Part shown: positions 4,933 to 23,461 of the stretch, one piece after another
Position numbering within the stretch: position 1 is the stretch's first letter
How the letters are laid out: the number at the start of each line of letters is the position of its first letter
From: a virus
Lineage: Duplodnaviria; Heunggongvirae; Uroviricota; Caudoviricetes
Virus record (IMG/VR): IMGVR_UViG_2585427763_000004
Strand: one strand, 5' to 3'
DNA: 47,112 bases
Notes under the pieces: generated by a model
Told to the model about the DNA's origin: nothing
The model's input: the letters and a program-made list of their open reading frames with translations, nothing else
The model's database searches: none
Program-made: the position numbers and the translations under genes

Positions 4933-5101
4933 GATGGCAGCCTCCGCGATGAATTTGATTAACTCACCACCGAGGTTTTCCACGACCATAAGGGTGGTGA
5001 GACGTACAGGGGTGGAAATACCGGTCATCACGGAACCCGGCCAGCCTTGCGGCTGCCCTGCACGCCCCACCATAATGCGAATGTGGCTGTGCTTAACGCA
5101 T

Positions 5102-5124
5102 AAAAAAACCGCCTGAGCGCGGTT
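5102..5124 (-). terminator. Rho-independent terminator (minus-strand transcription)
   Basis: Plus-strand sequence AAAAAAACCGCctgagcGCGGTT. On the minus strand this reads stem AACCGC / GCGGTT followed by a U7 run. Confidence 0.45.
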
Positions 5125-5775
5125 ATGCGCCGTGAATGATTTCGGGTTTCCACGCCCGGCACCCGTTTTATGAGGTGCAGGTGCACTATAATTCCACCCG
5201 TTCTGGTTTTCAATAGCTACATTCAACATTTTCTCTACCTTTCATCACCGAAGTGAACTTTGTTGATGCGGTGCCTGGTGCCTCCAGGTGACGTTAACCA
5301 GTTAACAATTAACGTCGGATACAGAGCATTCCCGTTACGCCCGTAAAAGACCGCTTGTTTTAACTGTTCCGCGTGCGCTGAGCCGCATTCACCGCATCAC
5401 AAAATTCACTTTAAAAAGGGCGGCAGAGCAGTCACGGAGTAGAACTGATACCGCCAAAAGTCACCAGAAAATTGATAACAGAGGGCGTTGCAGCGGAGTT
5501 GTCACTTAAGCGTATGGTCAACCTGACAACCCGGTGTCCTCAACGGGGGAAGGAATAACCCCGCCATACTTACCGCCGCGCCATTTCGCGGATTGCCACA
5601 ACCGGAAGCGCACGATCGAATTAAATTTAACGACGACCTATACAGAGAGACTAACTTCTCCGGGCGCTTTCGTGTTATGCCCTGACTTTTCAGGGATATA
5701 TCCTTTTCAGTAAACTGTCAGTGCCGGATTCTTATCCGTGTCCGGCGCACGCACTCTACCTCACCTGTGAATAAA

Positions 5776-11970: not shown

Positions 11971-12229
11971 ATACAGCGAACGCTATTGGTTTAGTTGGAT
12001 ATTTACTGTGCCGGACAAAAACGGTTTGCAGGGAAATCTTAGTTAAGTAGAATGACTGTGGGTGCTTGAGGCTATCTGTCTCAGGCATGAACACCAAAAG
12101 GCAGATAGAGAAAAGCCCCAGTTAACATTACGCGTCCTGCAAGACGCTTAACATTAATCTGAGGCCATATCTATGCTCTACACACGTAGGTTAGCCTCTT
12201 ACGTGCCGAAAGGCAAGGAGAAGCAGGCT

Positions 12230-12385
12230 ATGAAGCAGCAAAAGGCGATGCTAATCGCCCTGATCGTCATCTGTTTAACCGTCATAGTGACGGCACTGGT
12301 AACGAGGAAAGACCTCTGCGAGGTACGAATCCGAACCGGCCAGACGGAGGTCGCTGTCTTCACAGCTTACGAACCTGAGGAGTAA
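12230..12385 (+). CDS. hok: Hok/Gef-family type I toxin
   Basis: 51-aa product MKQQKAMLIALIVICLTVIVTALVTRKDLCEVRIRTGQTEVAVFTAYEPEE. It has the family pattern: TM helix, then LTRK-x-LCE[IV]R ... E-V-A-x-F-x-AYE. A longer upstream in-frame reading frame starts at 12173. A terminator follows. Confidence 0.75.
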   Translation: MKQQKAMLIALIVICLTVIVTALVTRKDLCEVRIRTGQTEVAVFTAYEPEE

Positions 12386-15363: not shown

Positions 15364-15368
15364 TGTTG

Positions 15369-15396
15369 TTGATTTTTCCCGAATCTGTGGTAAATT
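15369..15396 (+). promoter_or_regulatory. Late promoter PR'-like (-35 TTGATT, -10 TAAATT)
   Basis: TTGATT at 15369-15374 and TAAATT at 15391-15396, 16-nt spacer. Downstream GGTAAATTTG...AACGATGGG resembles the lambda PR' region as recalled. Confidence 0.55.
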
Positions 15397-15444
15397 TGCT
15401 CTAACGATGGGCGTTTTATGCCTGACGTTAGAAGATTTTTTACA

Positions 15445-15468
15445 CCCCGCCGCCTGGCGGGTTTTTTA
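15445..15468 (+). terminator. tR'-like rho-independent terminator (end of short Q-modified leader transcript)
   Basis: CCCGCCgcctGGCGGG followed by TTTTTT, about 50 nt downstream of the PR'-like -10. Confidence 0.6.
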
Positions 15469-15589
15469 TGACTGAAATCGCGTCAGTACAGTAAACGCGC
15501 TGGTGGCGGTGAATACCTGTCTTTCAGCTTGCTGGCTTTTTCGACAAGAGTTATTGGTGTGTCACGTTAACCGGAAAAGGGAAAAAGAC

Positions 15590-17036: not shown

Positions 17037-17112
17037 GGCCCTTTAGCTCAGTGGTGAGAGCGAGCGACTCATAATCGCCAGGTCGCTGGTTCAAATCCAG
17101 CAAGGGCCACCA
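17037..17112 (+). tRNA. tRNA with CAU anticodon (Met or lysidine-modified Ile2; ileZ-like of lambdoid/Stx phages)
   Basis: 76-nt cloverleaf folded by hand. Acceptor GGCCCTT/AAGGGCC, D-arm GCTC..GAGC, anticodon loop CUCAUAA, T-arm GCTGG-TTCAAAT-CCAGC, 3' ACCA. Confidence 0.85.
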
Positions 17113-17212
17113 TCACAAACCGCCATTAGCTTATCAGGAAGAGCAGACGACACGATAACAGGGTTGTTGGTGCGGGGGCGGGTCCCCGATGACGGTCCAT
17201 TATCGGTATTCA

Positions 17213-17289
17213 GCGTTGTTAGCTCAGCCGGACAGAGCAATTGCCTTCTAAGCAATCGGTCACTGGTTCGAATCCAGTACAGCGCGCCA
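17213..17289 (+). tRNA. tRNA-Arg (anticodon UCU)
   Basis: 77-nt cloverleaf folded by hand. Acceptor GCGTTGT/ACAGCGC (one G-U), anticodon stem ATTGC/GCAAT with loop CUUCUAA, T-loop TTCGAAT, 3' GCCA. Confidence 0.85.
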
Positions 17290-17396
17290 TATTCATTCTT
17301 CCAGATTCCTTTCGGCAGAGCCTTATACTGAAATATACCTGGCTCAGGATATTGTTGAAAATATTATATGTTTGTCAAAAATAAAAGTTCTGTTAA

Positions 17397-17753
17397 GTGT
17401 TGATTGAGTGTTTGTTATACGGTCTAATGGTTTTTTCAGCATTAAATATTTATCATTCATATGGTGTGGGTAGAGTGAATATTGATGAGGCGTCGGGGTG
17501 TTTCATCCTTAGGCAGCGTATTGATATAGTCAATGCAGAACGAGCAAAGGCCTTCAGCCGTTTGACAGTTTTGTTCTGTACTCCTGATCGTCTTTCGGGA
17601 AGAGACGTTATTATTCTGAATAGTGATGCTATACAGAGGGTTTGCGATGAGTTCATGGTGGCTAATTCAGAATTATTTGCTCTTGTTCAGGAGTACAACA
17701 GAATAGCCAGGACCTGTGGTATGGATGAACTTCGGATTACTCATCTGGGGTAG
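17397..17753 (+). CDS. Hypothetical protein (AT-rich cargo region)
   Basis: 118-aa ORF in a low-GC segment downstream of the tRNAs. Start codon uncertain (track uses GTG). No motif recognised. Confidence 0.3.
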   Translation: MLIECLLYGLMVFSALNIYHSYGVGRVNIDEASGCFILRQRIDIVNAERAKAFSRLTVLFCTPDRLSGRDVIILNSDAIQRVCDEFMVANSELFALVQEYNRIARTCGMDELRITHLG

Positions 17754-18146
17754 ATACATATCTGGATTATCACCGGTTACGGTAAAAAGTGATTGCTTAC
17801 TGTTTTTGTGAATGGCATTGCAGCAGCCGGATAATGTCAGTGCTGGCTGACGGTGTGCTGGTGGCGGGTGTGGTGGTTGCTGCTTTCCCGTTGCTGAAAA
17901 AGAAAACGCCAGACTGTTAGCCGGGTATCAGTTAGCGGGAGAAATTTTTAAATACTTCACAATTCAGGCGGTTGACTGTTGTCTGGTTTGCGGGGAGTTT
18001 GTTAAAAGAAACTGGCATGGTGAATCCCCCTGTGCGGAGGGGCAATCAGCGAGTAGGTATATGGGATAATCGCGGATTCAGGTGCTGGTACTGAATTCAC
18101 CGGGAGGCACCCGGCACCATGCAATGGCACATAGCGCCACTCTCCA

Positions 18147-18175
18147 GCCCCTCTCCGGAGGGGCTGTTTATATTG
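18147..18175 (+). terminator. Rho-independent terminator
   Basis: Perfect 7-bp stem GCCCCTC tccg GAGGGGC followed by TGTTTATATTGATTTT. Confidence 0.55.
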
Positions 18176-18200
18176 ATTTTGTCAGATGTGAGTAAACTCC

Positions 18201-18536
18201 TTATGGACTTTGTTGTTTTAGCCCATAAGGACATATTTGCAGAGTGCAACGGTTATTAAAGCATTCATTCAATACGTTATCTGTATTTGTAGGGCATTCC
18301 TGGCTGTTTTTGATTAAATTCCAGAATGTTTTATTGAATGGTACTACGTTGTAAATGGTTACAGGCAGCACTTTGTTATTGAGCATGATGCCTGTGTGAG
18401 TCAGTGTAAATATACTTTCAGGAGGTAAGAAAGCATCCGATTGATACCAGATTATTAATTTTATTTTACTCCATATGACTGAAAAAGATATTCCGCATGA
18501 TGGCTGGATAACTGTATCAATCACAATCCACTTCAT
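18201..18536 (-). CDS. Hypothetical Cys-containing protein (AT-rich, opposite strand to late operon)
   Basis: 111-aa ORF, low GC. C-terminal cysteine cluster [27 protein letters not shown] long open frame in AT-rich DNA is unlikely by chance. Confidence 0.35.
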
Positions 18537-18796
18537 TTAGTTTCCTTGTTTATGCCTTGCTGGTGATGTTCTGAAAAGTATAAATGATATTTTTGATTGT
18601 AAACCATAGAGCAGAATTATTTTTCTGATGTTGTTTATTGTTTATTTAAATGCAGGGTGGTTTATATCTCGTCTTGTAGTTTATCCATGCATATCTGCTT
18701 GATGATGAGGTTTTTAATTAAGGTATGGTTTTGTGTTTTTTCTGTATTACATGTCAGGTATTTTAAAGAATCATTTTTCAGATGGTGGAAAGAACC

Positions 18797-20650
18797 ATGG
18801 CATTTAAACACTATGATGTTGTCAGGGCGGCGTCGCCGTCAGATCTTGCGGAAAAGCTGACACATAAACTGAAAGAGGGCTGGCAGCCGTTTGGTAGTCC
18901 GGTGGCCATAACCCCTTATACCCTGATGCAGGCGATTGCAGCAGAAGGTGATGTGGTCGTCAGTGGTGCAACTGAGCCGGAGTGGTACTACGTCATCGTA
19001 CTGGCCGGGCAGTCCAATGCCATGGCTTACGGTGAAGGGCTTCCGCTTCCGGATTCATACGATGCGCCCCATCCGCGCATTAAGCAACTGGCCCGTCGTA
19101 ACACAGTGACTCCCGGTGGTGAAGTATGCGTATTTAACGACATCATTCCTGCTGACCATTGTCTGCATGATGTTCAGGATATGAGTACGATTAACCATCC
19201 CCGGGCTGACCTGAGCAAAGGGCAGTACGGCTGTGTCGGACAGGGCTTACATATTGCCAAAAAACTGCTTCCGTATATCCCTAATAACGCGGGGATCCTG
19301 CTGGTACCATGCTGTCGTGGTGGTTCGGCATTCACCCAGGGCACGGAGGGGACATTCAGCGAGTCCACGGGGGCCAGTCAGGATTCGGCTCGCTGGGGAG
19401 TGGGTAAGCCGTTATATCAGGATCTGCTTTTCCGCACGAAGGCAGCATTGCAGAAAAACCCGAAAAACGTTTTGCTGGCGATATGCTGGATGCAGGGGGA
19501 ATTCGATATGACGAATGCCAGTTACGCCCAGCAGCCAGCAGCATTTCTTGCAATGGTACAGCAGTTCCGTGCTGACCTTGCCGGGCTGGCGGCGCAGTGT
19601 CACGGTGGAAGTCCGGCATCAGTCCCCTGGATTTGTGGCGACACGACATACGCGTGGAAACAAGAACACGGTACGCAATATGAAGTGGTATATGGTGCAT
19701 ATAAAGGTAAAGAATCCCAGCAGATTTATTTTGTTCCCTTTATGACCGATGGTAGCGGAGTTAATACACCGACAAACAACCCGTCAGAAGATCCTGATAT
19801 TGTCGGGTCTGGTTATTACGGTTCGGCATCCCGAACGAACAAAAACTGGGTATCATCAAATCGCCCGACGCATTTCAGCTCATGGGCGCGTCGTGGCATT
19901 ATTCCCGATCGTATGGCAACCGCTATTCTGAACGCAGCCGGGCGCACCTCAGCCTTCATCAGTGGTAAGGCACCGGAAATCAAACCCTCGCCCGGCGGCG
20001 ACACGCCATCGGGTCCGTCTGCAGATACGTCCGTTCGCACAATCTCCCTGCTGCCGACAGCCGGAGAGGCTGCTGCGCAGGGCTGGAGCATTAAGAATGG
20101 CGGAATTCAGTTGTCAGATGGTGTATTTAAGATCACCAAGCAGAGCAATAAAGCCTGGTCCCTGACGCGCCCGGTGGATGACGCAGTCTCCCTGCTGACA
20201 CGGGGTGGCAGACTGAGCTGTAAGTTTCGACTGTCAGGCGCACTGACCAACAACCAGTTCGGTCTGGGAATTTATCTGTATACCGATGTAGCGTTACCTG
20301 ACGTCGTGGCGATGACCGGGACTGGTAACCCGTTCCTGATGTCGTTCTTCACCCAGACCACAGACGGCAAACTGAATCTGATGCATCACAAGAAAGCCGG
20401 AAACACAAAGTTGGGCGAGTTCGGGAATTACAGTAACGACTGGCAGACGCTGGAGCTGGTGTTCACCGCCGGCAGTGCCACGGTTACTCCGAAACTGAAT
20501 GGAGTGGCTGGCCCGGCATTCCAGGTCATAAAAGACAGTCTGACAGTGGGACTAAATGCACTGACGCTGACGGATATTACCAAAAATGCAACGTATGGCG
20601 TTGAGATAGAAAGTCTGGTGCTGGAGATAAATGCACCGGCATCATCATAA
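18797..20650 (+). CDS. nanS: NanS-p-like sialate 9-O-acetylesterase (DUF1737 N-terminal domain + SASA/SGNH esterase domain)
   Basis: Track ORF 18782..20650; the ATG at 18797 gives [21 protein letters not shown] (DUF1737-like). Esterase block [17 protein letters not shown] with the GQSN motif. Occupies the slot downstream of tRNAs/stx in Stx-type phages (recalled). Confidence 0.7.
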
Positions 20651-22993: not shown

Positions 22994-23404
22994 TTAGTGC
23001 GGAAATATTTGTGTAGTGTTCTGAATGTTCTCAGTAAAGAGTAATGAATTATCAAAGGTATAGTAATATCTTTTGTTTTCGTGGATATTTGTAATCCATC
23101 TGAAAACCCCTGCTGTAGCAAGATTTTTCCTGTATTCGTAAAATGATAACTCTCCTGATTTGAATCCTTTTAAGGTGGCTTCTATAAGGCATTTATTTTT
23201 TGAAAATCTTACATTTACAACCTTACCCTGTCCTTTTATTAAAACCGTATTATCGTTTTCAAGAACAAGATGAATATTCTCTGTGGCTAAATAGTAAATG
23301 TAATGTGAGACATTGTGACGTTTTAGTTCAGAATAAAACCAGTGATAGTTTAAATTATTTCGCACTTTATCGAATATTTGTTTAAAAATGGCAACCTGAG
23401 CCAT
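22994..23404 (-). CDS. Hypothetical protein (low-GC moron; YbcV/DUF1398-like position, tentative)
   Basis: Track ORF 22994..23419; likely start at MAQVAIFKQ (136 aa). AT-rich. Occupies the bor/ybcV slot between the lysis genes and cos. Confidence 0.4.
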
Positions 23405-23461
23405 TGTAGTACCTTCCATGTGATATGAGGGGGCGTAGTCTGCACGATTATCTAAATTGCT

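What the first reader, a model, noticed from the sequence alone, without database searches (positions are those of the whole stretch)
17290..18780. AT-rich cargo slot at the stx position carries uncharacterised ORFs instead of a toxin
In Stx-converting lambdoid phages the stretch between the late-operon tRNAs and the nanS-p-like gene holds stxAB. Here it is filled by about 1.5 kb of low-GC DNA. It contains a 118-aa plus-strand ORF (17397..17753), a possible 28-aa hydrophobic peptide (17834..17920, MSVLADGVLVAGVVVAAFPLLKKKTPDC), a strong terminator (18147..18175) and a 111-aa Cys-containing ORF on the opposite strand (18201..18536). None matched a family I recognise. The location is a known moron hotspot that would be highly expressed from PR' on induction.
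Basis: partly seen in the sequence, partly recalled or inferred. Interest (0 to 1): 0.6.

Follow-up and report, generated by a model that had tools for sequence, protein, structure and literature searches.

The report
Known iraL and sRNA prophage locus
The slot where Shiga-toxin phages carry their toxin here holds the already characterised stress-response gene iraL, a known family of phage small RNA, a small membrane peptide and one conserved 92-residue phage protein of unknown function, so it is largely ordinary.

Summary
The features are at the stated coordinates, but most of them are not uncharacterised.

- **Minus-strand ORF (18201-18536):** this is IraL. It is 100% identical in protein to the CFT073 anti-adaptor that blocks RssB and stabilises RpoS in log phase. 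Its 5'RACE-mapped leader and promoter are conserved here.
- **"Strong terminator":** this is the 3' end of an STnc100-family sRNA at 17986-18175 (Rfam 132 bits against a threshold of 47). The same sRNA family lies just downstream of stxB in Stx phages.
- **Peptide:** it matches Pfam DUF3927 ("TciB-like").
- **118-aa ORF:** this is the only uncharacterised part. Its conserved core is 92 aa, starting at GTG 17475, and belongs to phrog_2873. It is under purifying selection (dN/dS about 0.28). Relatives in Citrobacter, Serratia and Morganella sit at the same place, between Q, methylase or tRNAs and the lysis genes. RefSeq leaves it unannotated.

The slot is 97% identical to the CFT073 potB prophage. 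It is present whole in 863 of 5426 complete E. coli genomes.

There are two cargo positions. One lies between the tRNAs and the sRNA, and holds stx elsewhere. The other lies between the sRNA and the esterase on the opposite strand, and holds iraL here and AgvB in an Stx1 phage.

Verdict: already known, low interest, with a minor lead in the 92-aa family.

The parts
17037..17112 (+). tRNA with CAT anticodon. ARAGORN calls it Met; PGAP calls the identical gene tRNA-Ile in O104:H4 and CFT073.
17119..17199 (+). Degenerate relic of the middle tRNA-Arg(TCG). The acceptor and T arms are kept but the anticodon region is scrambled. The gene is intact in the O104:H4 and CFT073 prophages.
   Evidence: alignment against L001; not called by ARAGORN or Rfam
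17213..17289 (+). tRNA-Arg (TCT). This is the left border of cargo position A.
17475..17753 (+). Gene for a 92-aa protein of the phrog_2873 family, function unknown. The frame is open from GTG 17397 (118 aa), but the first 26 codons are not conserved in relatives. The predicted fold is a helical hairpin with a short beta-hairpin between the helices.
17789..17920 (+). DUF3927 / TciB-like small hydrophobic peptide. PGAP models 43 aa from GTG 17789. The conserved transmembrane core starts at ATG 17834 (28 aa).
17986..18175 (+). STnc100-family sRNA, related to PasD. It includes the intrinsic terminator at 18145-18175. The true 5' end is not mapped here.
   Evidence: PMC5331693; bioRxiv 10.64898/2026.05.13.724894
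18201..18536 (-). iraL coding sequence (111 aa). IraL is an RssB anti-adaptor. The protein is 100% identical to CFT073 IraL and 62% identical to K-12 IraM.
   Evidence: PMC4045071
18537..18610 (-). iraL 33-nt leader, with the transcription start at 18569, and its sigma-70 promoter. The -10 is TATACT at 18577-18582 and the -35 is TTTACA at 18598-18603.
   Evidence: 31 of 32 nt match the 5'RACE sequence in PMC4045071; 3 differences in 133 nt against CFT073
18611..18796 (.). AT-rich spacer (32-35% GC) between the iraL promoter and the esterase start. PGAP places that start at 18797.

Best explanation
Window 17290-18780 is the iraL locus of a Qin/potB-type lambdoid prophage. It is a mosaic of four small, mostly catalogued elements in the late-operon leader. 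It is not a novel replacement for the toxin.

1. **iraL (minus strand).** It is transcribed from its own sigma-70 promoter in the lysogen. [quoted passage not shown] This was shown for the identical protein in CFT073 and in S. sonnei. For this copy it is inferred from identity.
2. **STnc100/PasD-family sRNA (plus strand).** It ends at the strong intrinsic terminator. Copies in EDL933 are transcribed without induction and one was confirmed by Northern blot. The related PasD sRNAs bind Hfq and many mRNAs. The targets of this copy are unknown.
3. **DUF3927 (TciB-like) membrane peptide.**
4. **A 92-aa helical-hairpin protein (phrog_2873).** It is conserved at the head of the late operon in diverged Enterobacterales prophages.

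Elements 3 and 4 are on the late strand. They are probably made mainly when Q-modified RNA polymerase from PR' reads through. That polymerase would also read through the sRNA terminator and run antisense across iraL. This last part is inferred from the lambda and Stx-phage model.

The locus has two cargo positions. Position A lies between the tRNAs and the sRNA. It holds stxAB in Stx phages and the 92-aa gene plus DUF3927 here. Position B lies between the sRNA and the esterase on the opposite strand. It holds AgvB in an Stx1 phage and iraL here.
For: - **Public annotation:** the slot is 100% identical in O104:H4 and many other genomes, where it is annotated IraM + DUF3927.
- **IraL family match:** NCBIfam IraM at 162 bits against a cutoff of 121. 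It is 62% identical to K-12 IraM.
- **IraL identity:** the protein is identical to the CFT073 gene (WP_000871291.1) in the potB prophage, and the slot is 97.3% identical overall.
- **IraL promoter:** the leader matches the 5'RACE transcript start at 31 of 32 nt (PMC4045071). The promoter region from -100 to +33 differs at 3 of 133 positions.
- **IraM structure:** a solved IraM structure, 8twd, matches at E 5e-31.
- **sRNA:** STnc100 at 132.4 bits against a threshold of 47, with the full 206-position model matched. The terminator is found by the scan. The fold has a z-score of -2.2.
- **sRNA in relatives:** the family is expressed and Northern-verified in EDL933 (PMC5331693). It lies 75 nt downstream of stx2B (PMC12370729). 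It is related to the Hfq-bound PasD (bioRxiv 10.64898/2026.05.13.724894). Copies occupy the same position in L004, L011, L012 and L002.
- **DUF3927:** Pfam E 1.3e-26 and phrog_1470 'TciB-like'. The core has pS 0.60 against pN 0.27 when compared with relatives.
- **92-aa gene, coding signal:** dN/dS is 0.30/1.08 in frame and about 1 in the other frames. Against L009, pS is 0.57 and pN 0.20.
- **92-aa gene, family:** phrog_2873 at E 2.5e-58. Members are 91-99 aa and range down to 22% identity across genera.
- **92-aa gene, position:** relatives keep the same position between Q, methylase or tRNAs and holin-lysozyme.
- **Position B:** AgvB sits on the minus strand right after STnc100 in phage 75/02 Stx.
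Against: - Nothing was measured for this particular copy. Expression of the sRNA, the peptide and the 92-aa protein here is not shown.
- The sRNA's 5' end and promoter are not mapped, and the consensus scan found no convincing promoter for it.
- The start codons of the 92-aa gene and of the peptide rest on comparison only.
- The N-terminal part of the peptide has indels relative to the 50-aa versions in Citrobacter, so it may be a decaying copy.
- The function of the 92-aa protein stays unknown. Fold searches return only generic helical hairpins.
- One relative sits on a plasmid-like contig away from any lysis genes, so the positional rule is not absolute.
Confidence: 0.88

Rival explanations
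1. One reading: the slot carries novel, uncharacterised protein cargo that takes the place of the toxin and is strongly expressed from PR' on induction.
For: The 92-aa gene and the peptide are on the late strand, downstream of Q and a PR'-like region. They occupy exactly the place of stx1AB relative to the STnc100 sRNA. The 92-aa protein has no Pfam, NCBIfam or PADLOC match.
Against: The largest ORF after it is the characterised IraL, on the opposite strand with its own promoter. The terminator belongs to a known sRNA. The peptide is in Pfam. The 92-aa family is already catalogued as phrog_2873. The same slot is in CFT073 and in 863 complete genomes.
Confidence: 0.08
2. The 92-aa gene is not cargo at all. 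It is a conserved core gene at the head of the late operon of many Enterobacterales lambdoid phages, with a role in the phage cycle such as control of lysis timing or late expression. It would act as an oligomeric coiled-coil binder.
For: Relatives at 22-44% identity sit between Q or methylase and holin-lysozyme in Citrobacter, Serratia and Morganella prophages. Length is conserved at 91-99 aa. Selection is purifying. A Shine-Dalgarno sequence precedes the conserved start, and it is AGGAG in L009. The model is a confident helical hairpin with pLDDT 84.8.
Against: The gene is absent from lambda-like Stx phages such as 75/02 and from vB_EcoS-640R1, so it is dispensable. Its low GC (37-42%) is typical of accessory moron genes. 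One homologue is on a plasmid-like contig next to fimbrial genes. No functional or structural link to any lysis or regulatory protein was found.
Confidence: 0.4
3. The 92-aa protein and the DUF3927 peptide work together as an envelope or exclusion ('Tci') module that alters the membrane of the lysogen. In relatives a TerB-like protein lies between them.
For: The order is 92-aa gene, then TerB-like, then DUF3927, then holin in L009 and L010. The 92-aa gene and DUF3927 occur together in 1183 E. coli genomes. PHROGs labels the peptide family 'TciB-like inhibition of cell division or resistance to colicin'.
Against: The label is an annotation with no experiment that I could find; the literature search for TciB was empty for this topic. 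The TerB-like gene is missing here. The Serratia and Morganella loci show no Pfam DUF3927 call next to the gene. There is no PADLOC match.
Confidence: 0.15
4. The plus-strand ORFs are chance open frames in AT-rich non-coding DNA.
For: RefSeq PGAP does not annotate 17397-17753 in O104:H4 or CFT073. The Shine-Dalgarno sequence in this copy is weak. The N-terminus of the peptide is unstable.
Against: In-frame dN/dS is 0.28, against about 1 out of frame. The family spans several genera at a conserved length. HMM matches are strong for both ORFs.
Confidence: 0.03

Closest known systems
iraL locus of the E. coli CFT073 potB prophage (Hryckowian et al. 2014, PMC4045071)
   Same: The IraL protein is identical. 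The order is the same: tRNAs, 92-aa ORF, DUF3927, sRNA, then iraL on the minus strand. Identity is 97.3% over 2 kb. The leader and promoter are conserved.
   Different: In CFT073 an IS200 lies upstream, the middle tRNA-Arg is intact and the downstream esterase is truncated to a DUF1737 fragment. Here the esterase is full length and the middle tRNA is degenerate.
IraM of E. coli K-12 (next to the e14 prophage; PhoP-dependent anti-adaptor; PDB 8twd)
   Same: It is a homologous anti-adaptor, 62% identical with the same length class. It is also horizontally acquired and lies near a DUF1398 gene.
   Different: The upstream region and regulation differ. [quoted passage not shown] K-12 has no STnc100 copy beside iraM.
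stx locus of Stx-converting phages (e.g. Shigella phage 75/02 Stx)
   Same: The backbone is the same: Q, then cargo, then STnc100 sRNA, then a SASA esterase, then holin-lysozyme.
   Different: Cargo position A holds stx1AB there and the 92-aa gene plus DUF3927 here. The minus-strand position B holds the sRNA AgvB there and iraL here.
STnc100 (RF02076) / PasD prophage sRNAs
   Same: The covariance model matches over its full length, the terminator is present, and the position just upstream of the esterase is the same.
   Different: No expression, Hfq-binding or target data exist for this copy. The seed regions of STnc100 and PasD differ according to the 2026 preprint.

Membership tests
IraM/IraL RssB anti-adaptors | Sequence match to the curated family model above its cutoff | tested here: met
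   NF007393 at 162 bits against a cutoff of 121. PDB IraM 8twd matches at E 4.7e-31.
IraM/IraL RssB anti-adaptors | IraL subtype: identity with the experimentally studied CFT073 protein, as opposed to K-12 IraM | tested here: met
   100% protein identity with the CFT073 gene. Only 62% identity with K-12 IraM.
IraM/IraL RssB anti-adaptors | Own sigma-70 promoter and mapped transcript start | tested here: met
   31 of 32 nt match the 5'RACE sequence. The -10 is TATACT and the -35 is TTTACA. There are 3 differences in 133 nt against CFT073.
IraM/IraL RssB anti-adaptors | Binds RssB and stabilises RpoS | not testable with these tools
   Shown for the identical protein in CFT073 and S. sonnei (PMC4045071). 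Inferred here.
STnc100 sRNA (RF02076) | Covariance-model score above the gathering threshold over the whole model | tested here: met
   132.4 bits against 47, model positions 1-206.
STnc100 sRNA (RF02076) | Intrinsic terminator at the 3' end | tested here: met
   Stem of 9 pairs (7 G-C) at 18145-18166, followed by a T-run.
STnc100 sRNA (RF02076) | Discrete transcript; Hfq binding | not testable with these tools
   Other copies are expressed and Northern-positive in EDL933 (PMC5331693). The PasD relatives are Hfq-bound (bioRxiv 10.64898/2026.05.13.724894).
DUF3927 (PF13064) / phrog_1470 TciB-like | HMM match above the gathering score, with a hydrophobic core | tested here: met
   92.7 bits against 25. 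phrog_1470 at E 1.5e-11. The core is conserved with Citrobacter and shows pS greater than pN.
phrog_2873 (92-aa late-leader protein) | HMM match and conserved length | tested here: met
   E 2.5e-58. Relatives are 91-99 aa.
Stx-converting phage toxin locus | stxA and stxB genes between Q or the tRNAs and the esterase | tested here: not met
   No ORF in the slot matches a toxin family. The identical loci are annotated without stx.
GapR / UPF0335 DNA-binding proteins (considered for the 92-aa protein) | Significant sequence match to the family | tested here: not met
   Only E 0.04-0.2 to PDB GapR chains, over the first helix. No Pfam hit.
Known anti-phage defence systems (PADLOC) | Match to any defence-protein model | tested here: not met
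   No hits for the three proteins or for two relatives.

The most novel reading that the evidence does not exclude
The 92-aa helical-hairpin protein (phrog_2873; 17475-17753) is an unrecognised, widely conserved first gene of the late operon of Enterobacterales lambdoid prophages. RefSeq annotation misses it in more than a thousand complete E. coli genomes. It may have a specific regulatory or host-directed role, for example control of lysis or late expression. It might also act on the envelope together with the neighbouring TerB-like and DUF3927 proteins.
Probability: 0.25. Interest if true: 0.45.

Novelty: already known. Interest (0 to 1): 0.2.

Why it matters
The practical value is in annotation. 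The stretch should be labelled as iraL (not iraM and not 'hypothetical'), an STnc100-family sRNA, a DUF3927 peptide and a phrog_2873 gene.

It shows that the late-operon leader of these prophages has two separate cargo positions on opposite strands around a fixed sRNA. The position that carries Shiga toxin in some phages is next to one that carries a regulator of the host general stress response in others. iraL with its promoter is in 1441 of 5426 complete E. coli genomes, so prophage control of RpoS stability is common.

The one open item is the 92-aa protein family. It is conserved across genera at a fixed position, yet it has no function and mostly no annotation.

Tried and rejected
- **Profile search against PDB sequences.** It gave marginal GapR/UPF0335 hits (E 0.04-0.2) that Pfam does not support. 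I rejected this as a family assignment.
- **PADLOC.** No defence-system match.
- **Literature search for 'TciB'.** It returned only unrelated papers. 'DUF3927' returned one incidental mention.
- **STnc100 relic beside K-12 iraM.** I looked for one to link the two loci and found none.
- **Upstream regions of the 92-aa gene.** I aligned them across three loci to find a conserved promoter. Nothing is conserved beyond the ribosome-binding region.
- **Promoter scan of the slot.** It gave no more hits than shuffled sequence (6 against 4.3 +/- 1.8). It did not flag the experimentally mapped iraL promoter, so I did not use it to assign promoters.
- **Related-locus scan with the 9-sequence alignment.** The first attempt failed for lack of a conserved stretch. 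A 5-sequence alignment worked.
- **One script.** It failed to find its anchors, so it aligned the slot against the whole 50-kb CFT073 locus. Only its interior per-feature difference counts are usable.

Full report
**1. Checking the observation**

The coordinates hold.
- ARAGORN finds a tRNA with a CAT anticodon at 17037-17112 and tRNA-Arg(TCT) at 17213-17289.
- The downstream gene has DUF1737, SASA and DUF6645 domains, so it is a nanS-p-type esterase.

The composition is not uniformly low in GC. Two AT-rich blocks (37-42% and 32-35% GC) flank a core of about 50% GC at 17800-18250.

**2. What the pieces are**

A megablast against complete E. coli genomes finds the whole 1491-bp stretch at 100% identity in O104:H4 and many other strains. 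It is found at 80% coverage or more in 863 of 5426 genomes. It is annotated there as 'anti-adapter protein IraM | DUF3927 family protein | hypothetical protein'.

*The 111-aa ORF is IraL.*
- It scores 162 bits against NCBIfam NF007393, whose cutoff is 121.
- It is 62% identical to K-12 IraM and matches the solved IraM structure 8twd at E 5e-31.
- The literature describes IraL, an IraM homologue of UPEC CFT073 that is 58.9% identical to IraM. It lies on the potB island and is transcribed from a sigma-70 promoter. [quoted passage not shown]
- I fetched the CFT073 potB prophage. It has the same order: Q, tRNAs, DUF3927, then IraM on the minus strand. It carries the same protein accession as O104:H4.
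- The window protein is 100% identical to the CFT073 protein, and 2 kb around it aligns at 97.3%.
- The first 32 nt of the 5'RACE-mapped iraL mRNA match the window at 31 of 32 positions. This puts the transcription start at 18569 on the minus strand, with a 33-nt leader, a -10 of TATACT and a -35 of TTTACA.
- The complementing fragment used in that paper, from -100 to +33, differs at 3 of 133 positions.

*The terminator belongs to an sRNA.*
- Rfam places an STnc100 (RF02076) sRNA at 17986-18175 with 132.4 bits against a gathering score of 47. It covers all 206 model positions and includes the hairpin.
- The segment folds better than shuffled sequence, with a z-score of -2.2.
- EDL933 has 11 copies of the family, which are transcribed, and one was confirmed by Northern blot (PMC5331693).
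- A copy lies 75 nt downstream of stx2B in Stx2 phages (PMC12370729).
- A 2026 preprint relates STnc100 to the Hfq-bound PasD sRNAs of EPEC, which also sit next to the sialate esterase.

*The peptide is DUF3927.*
- It matches Pfam PF13064 (E 1.3e-26) and phrog_1470, 'TciB-like'.
- Its C-terminal hydrophobic core, MSVLADGVLV..., is conserved with 50-aa versions in Citrobacter and another contig. For this core pS is 0.60 and pN 0.27 in frame, and the relation reverses out of frame.
- The N-terminal part carries indels relative to those versions, so the start codon (17789 or 17834) is uncertain.

*The plus-strand ORF is a real gene of unknown function.*
- It has no Pfam or NCBIfam match. RefSeq leaves it unannotated in both O104:H4 and CFT073.
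- Homologues at 56-62% identity exist.
- Against one of them, dN/dS is 0.30/1.08 in frame and about 1 in the other two frames. There are 43 third-position changes against 25 and 22 at the first two positions. A second comparison agrees.
- Only the last 92 codons, from GTG 17475, are conserved. Relatives start there behind a Shine-Dalgarno sequence, which is AGGAG in L009.
- An exhaustive profile search and a second word-indexed search find a family of 91-99-aa proteins. They occur in E. coli, Citrobacter, Salmonella, Serratia, Morganella and Xenorhabdus, at identities down to about 22%. The family is phrog_2873, function unknown.
- AlphaFold gives two long helices (residues 3-35 and 50-81) joined by a short beta-hairpin, with pLDDT 84.8.
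- Structure searches return only generic helical hairpins. Weak GapR hits are not supported by Pfam. PADLOC has nothing.

**3. Context and anatomy**

Upstream lie a Q antiterminator (PF03589) and an N6/N4 methylase. Just after Q is a sequence I recognise as resembling lambda PR' with its pause element (GGTAAATTTGCTCTAACGATGGG). A terminator follows at 15446-15461. The promoter identification rests on my memory of lambda, not on a tool.

The 92-aa family keeps its place in distant prophages.
- Citrobacter L010: tRNAs, 95-aa homologue, TerB-like protein, DUF3927, two holins, endolysin.
- L009: methylase, homologue, TerB-like protein, DUF3927, holin.
- Serratia: Q, homologue, two small ORFs, lysozyme.
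- Morganella: Q, methylase, homologue, holin, lysozyme.
- One relative lies on a plasmid-like contig next to fimbrial genes.

The slot itself is mosaic.
- Stx1 phage 75/02: stx1AB, then STnc100, then AgvB on the minus strand, then the esterase.
- Phage vB_EcoS-640R1: a tRNA, two small ORFs and two STnc100 copies, then iraL on the minus strand.
- L004: tRNAs, an STnc100 copy, an AraC-type gene, IS3, a 92-aa homologue, a second STnc100 copy and the esterase.
- mEp460_ev081: it shares only the left half of the slot.

So the sRNA is a fixed landmark with two cargo positions around it. Position A is on the late strand, between the tRNAs and the sRNA. Position B is on the opposite strand, between the sRNA and the esterase.

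In complete E. coli genomes, iraL with its promoter occurs in 1441, the 92-aa gene plus DUF3927 in 1183, and the full combination in 863.

**4. How it most likely works**

*Shown elsewhere for identical or near-identical sequence.* IraL is made from its own promoter in growing lysogens. It protects RpoS from RssB/ClpXP (PMC4045071). An O104:H4 RNA-seq study reports the gene annotated iraM as expressed (PMC12864459). STnc100-family RNAs are made without induction (PMC5331693).

*Inferred.* On induction, Q-modified polymerase from PR' reads through tR', the methylase and the tRNAs. It then expresses the 92-aa protein and the peptide, ignores the sRNA terminator and crosses iraL in antisense on its way to the esterase and the lysis genes.

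The hairpin has a T-run only on the plus strand. The iraL mRNA may therefore extend into the complement of the sRNA. This is speculation.

The function of the 92-aa protein is unknown. My best guess is an oligomeric coiled-coil binder that acts in the late phase.

**5. Comparison, novelty and verdict**

The locus is the published iraL locus. It carries a curated sRNA family, a Pfam DUF and a catalogued phage protein family, and it is identical in hundreds of public genomes. It is not a toxin locus, since no stx gene is present.

Novelty: already known. Interest: low (0.2). The remaining lead is the unannotated, positionally conserved 92-aa family.

Noticed in passing
window 17119-17199: The middle tRNA of the late-leader cluster is degenerate here. 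It is an intact tRNA-Arg(TCG) in the O104:H4 and CFT073 prophages. The acceptor and T arms are kept, but the anticodon region is replaced and 4 nt longer. ARAGORN and Rfam do not call it.
   Followed up: partly
window 15364-15470: Just downstream of Q is a lambda PR'-like -10 and pause sequence (GGTAAATTTGCTCTAACGATGGG). A strong terminator follows (CCCGCCGCCTGGCGGG plus a T-run at 15446-15461). This would give a short PR'-tR' leader RNA like lambda 6S or StxS. The identification rests on memory of lambda.
   Followed up: partly
window 18005-18130 (minus strand): RefSeq annotates a partial 'hypothetical protein' pseudogene here in O104:H4 and CFT073. It lies entirely antisense to the STnc100 sRNA and is probably a spurious call. 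The conserved 92-aa gene at 17475-17753 is left unannotated.
   Followed up: partly
window 22994-23419 (minus strand): A DUF1398 gene (E 3e-43) lies downstream of the lysis cassette. In K-12, iraM is likewise followed by the DUF1398 gene ycgX, with the small genes ymgK and ymgL between them. This hints that the K-12 iraM-ycgX stretch is a remnant of a similar prophage late region. No STnc100 relic was found beside K-12 iraM.
   Followed up: partly
L011 4166-4225 (Shigella phage 75/02 Stx): The anti-GcvB sRNA AgvB (56.6 bits against a threshold of 56) lies on the minus strand directly after the STnc100 copy and before the esterase. This is the same position and orientation as iraL in the window.
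   Followed up: no
L012 3561-3754 and 4030-4218; L004 2344-2556 and 5650-5839: Some related prophages carry two STnc100 copies in the same late leader. In L004 they bracket an AraC-type (HTH_18) gene, an IS3 element and a 92-aa homologue.
   Followed up: no
window 4990-5469 and 12060-12235: Other curated prophage RNAs are in the window: C4 antisense RNA (4990-5077, minus), isrK (5102-5178, minus), DicF (5418-5469, minus) and sok (12060-12235, plus). These fit a Qin-like prophage.
   Followed up: no
L009 (JAEWMQ010000075.1, 2736 bases): This contig is labelled as a Bacillota MAG. It carries an enterobacterial lambdoid late-leader segment: methylase, 92-aa homologue, TerB-like protein, DUF3927 and holin. 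It is probably a binning error.
   Followed up: no
window 18782-18799: The esterase ORF opens at ATG 18782. PGAP and the homologue in L004 start at the second ATG, 18797 (MAFKHYD...). The shorter form is the more likely one.
   Followed up: no
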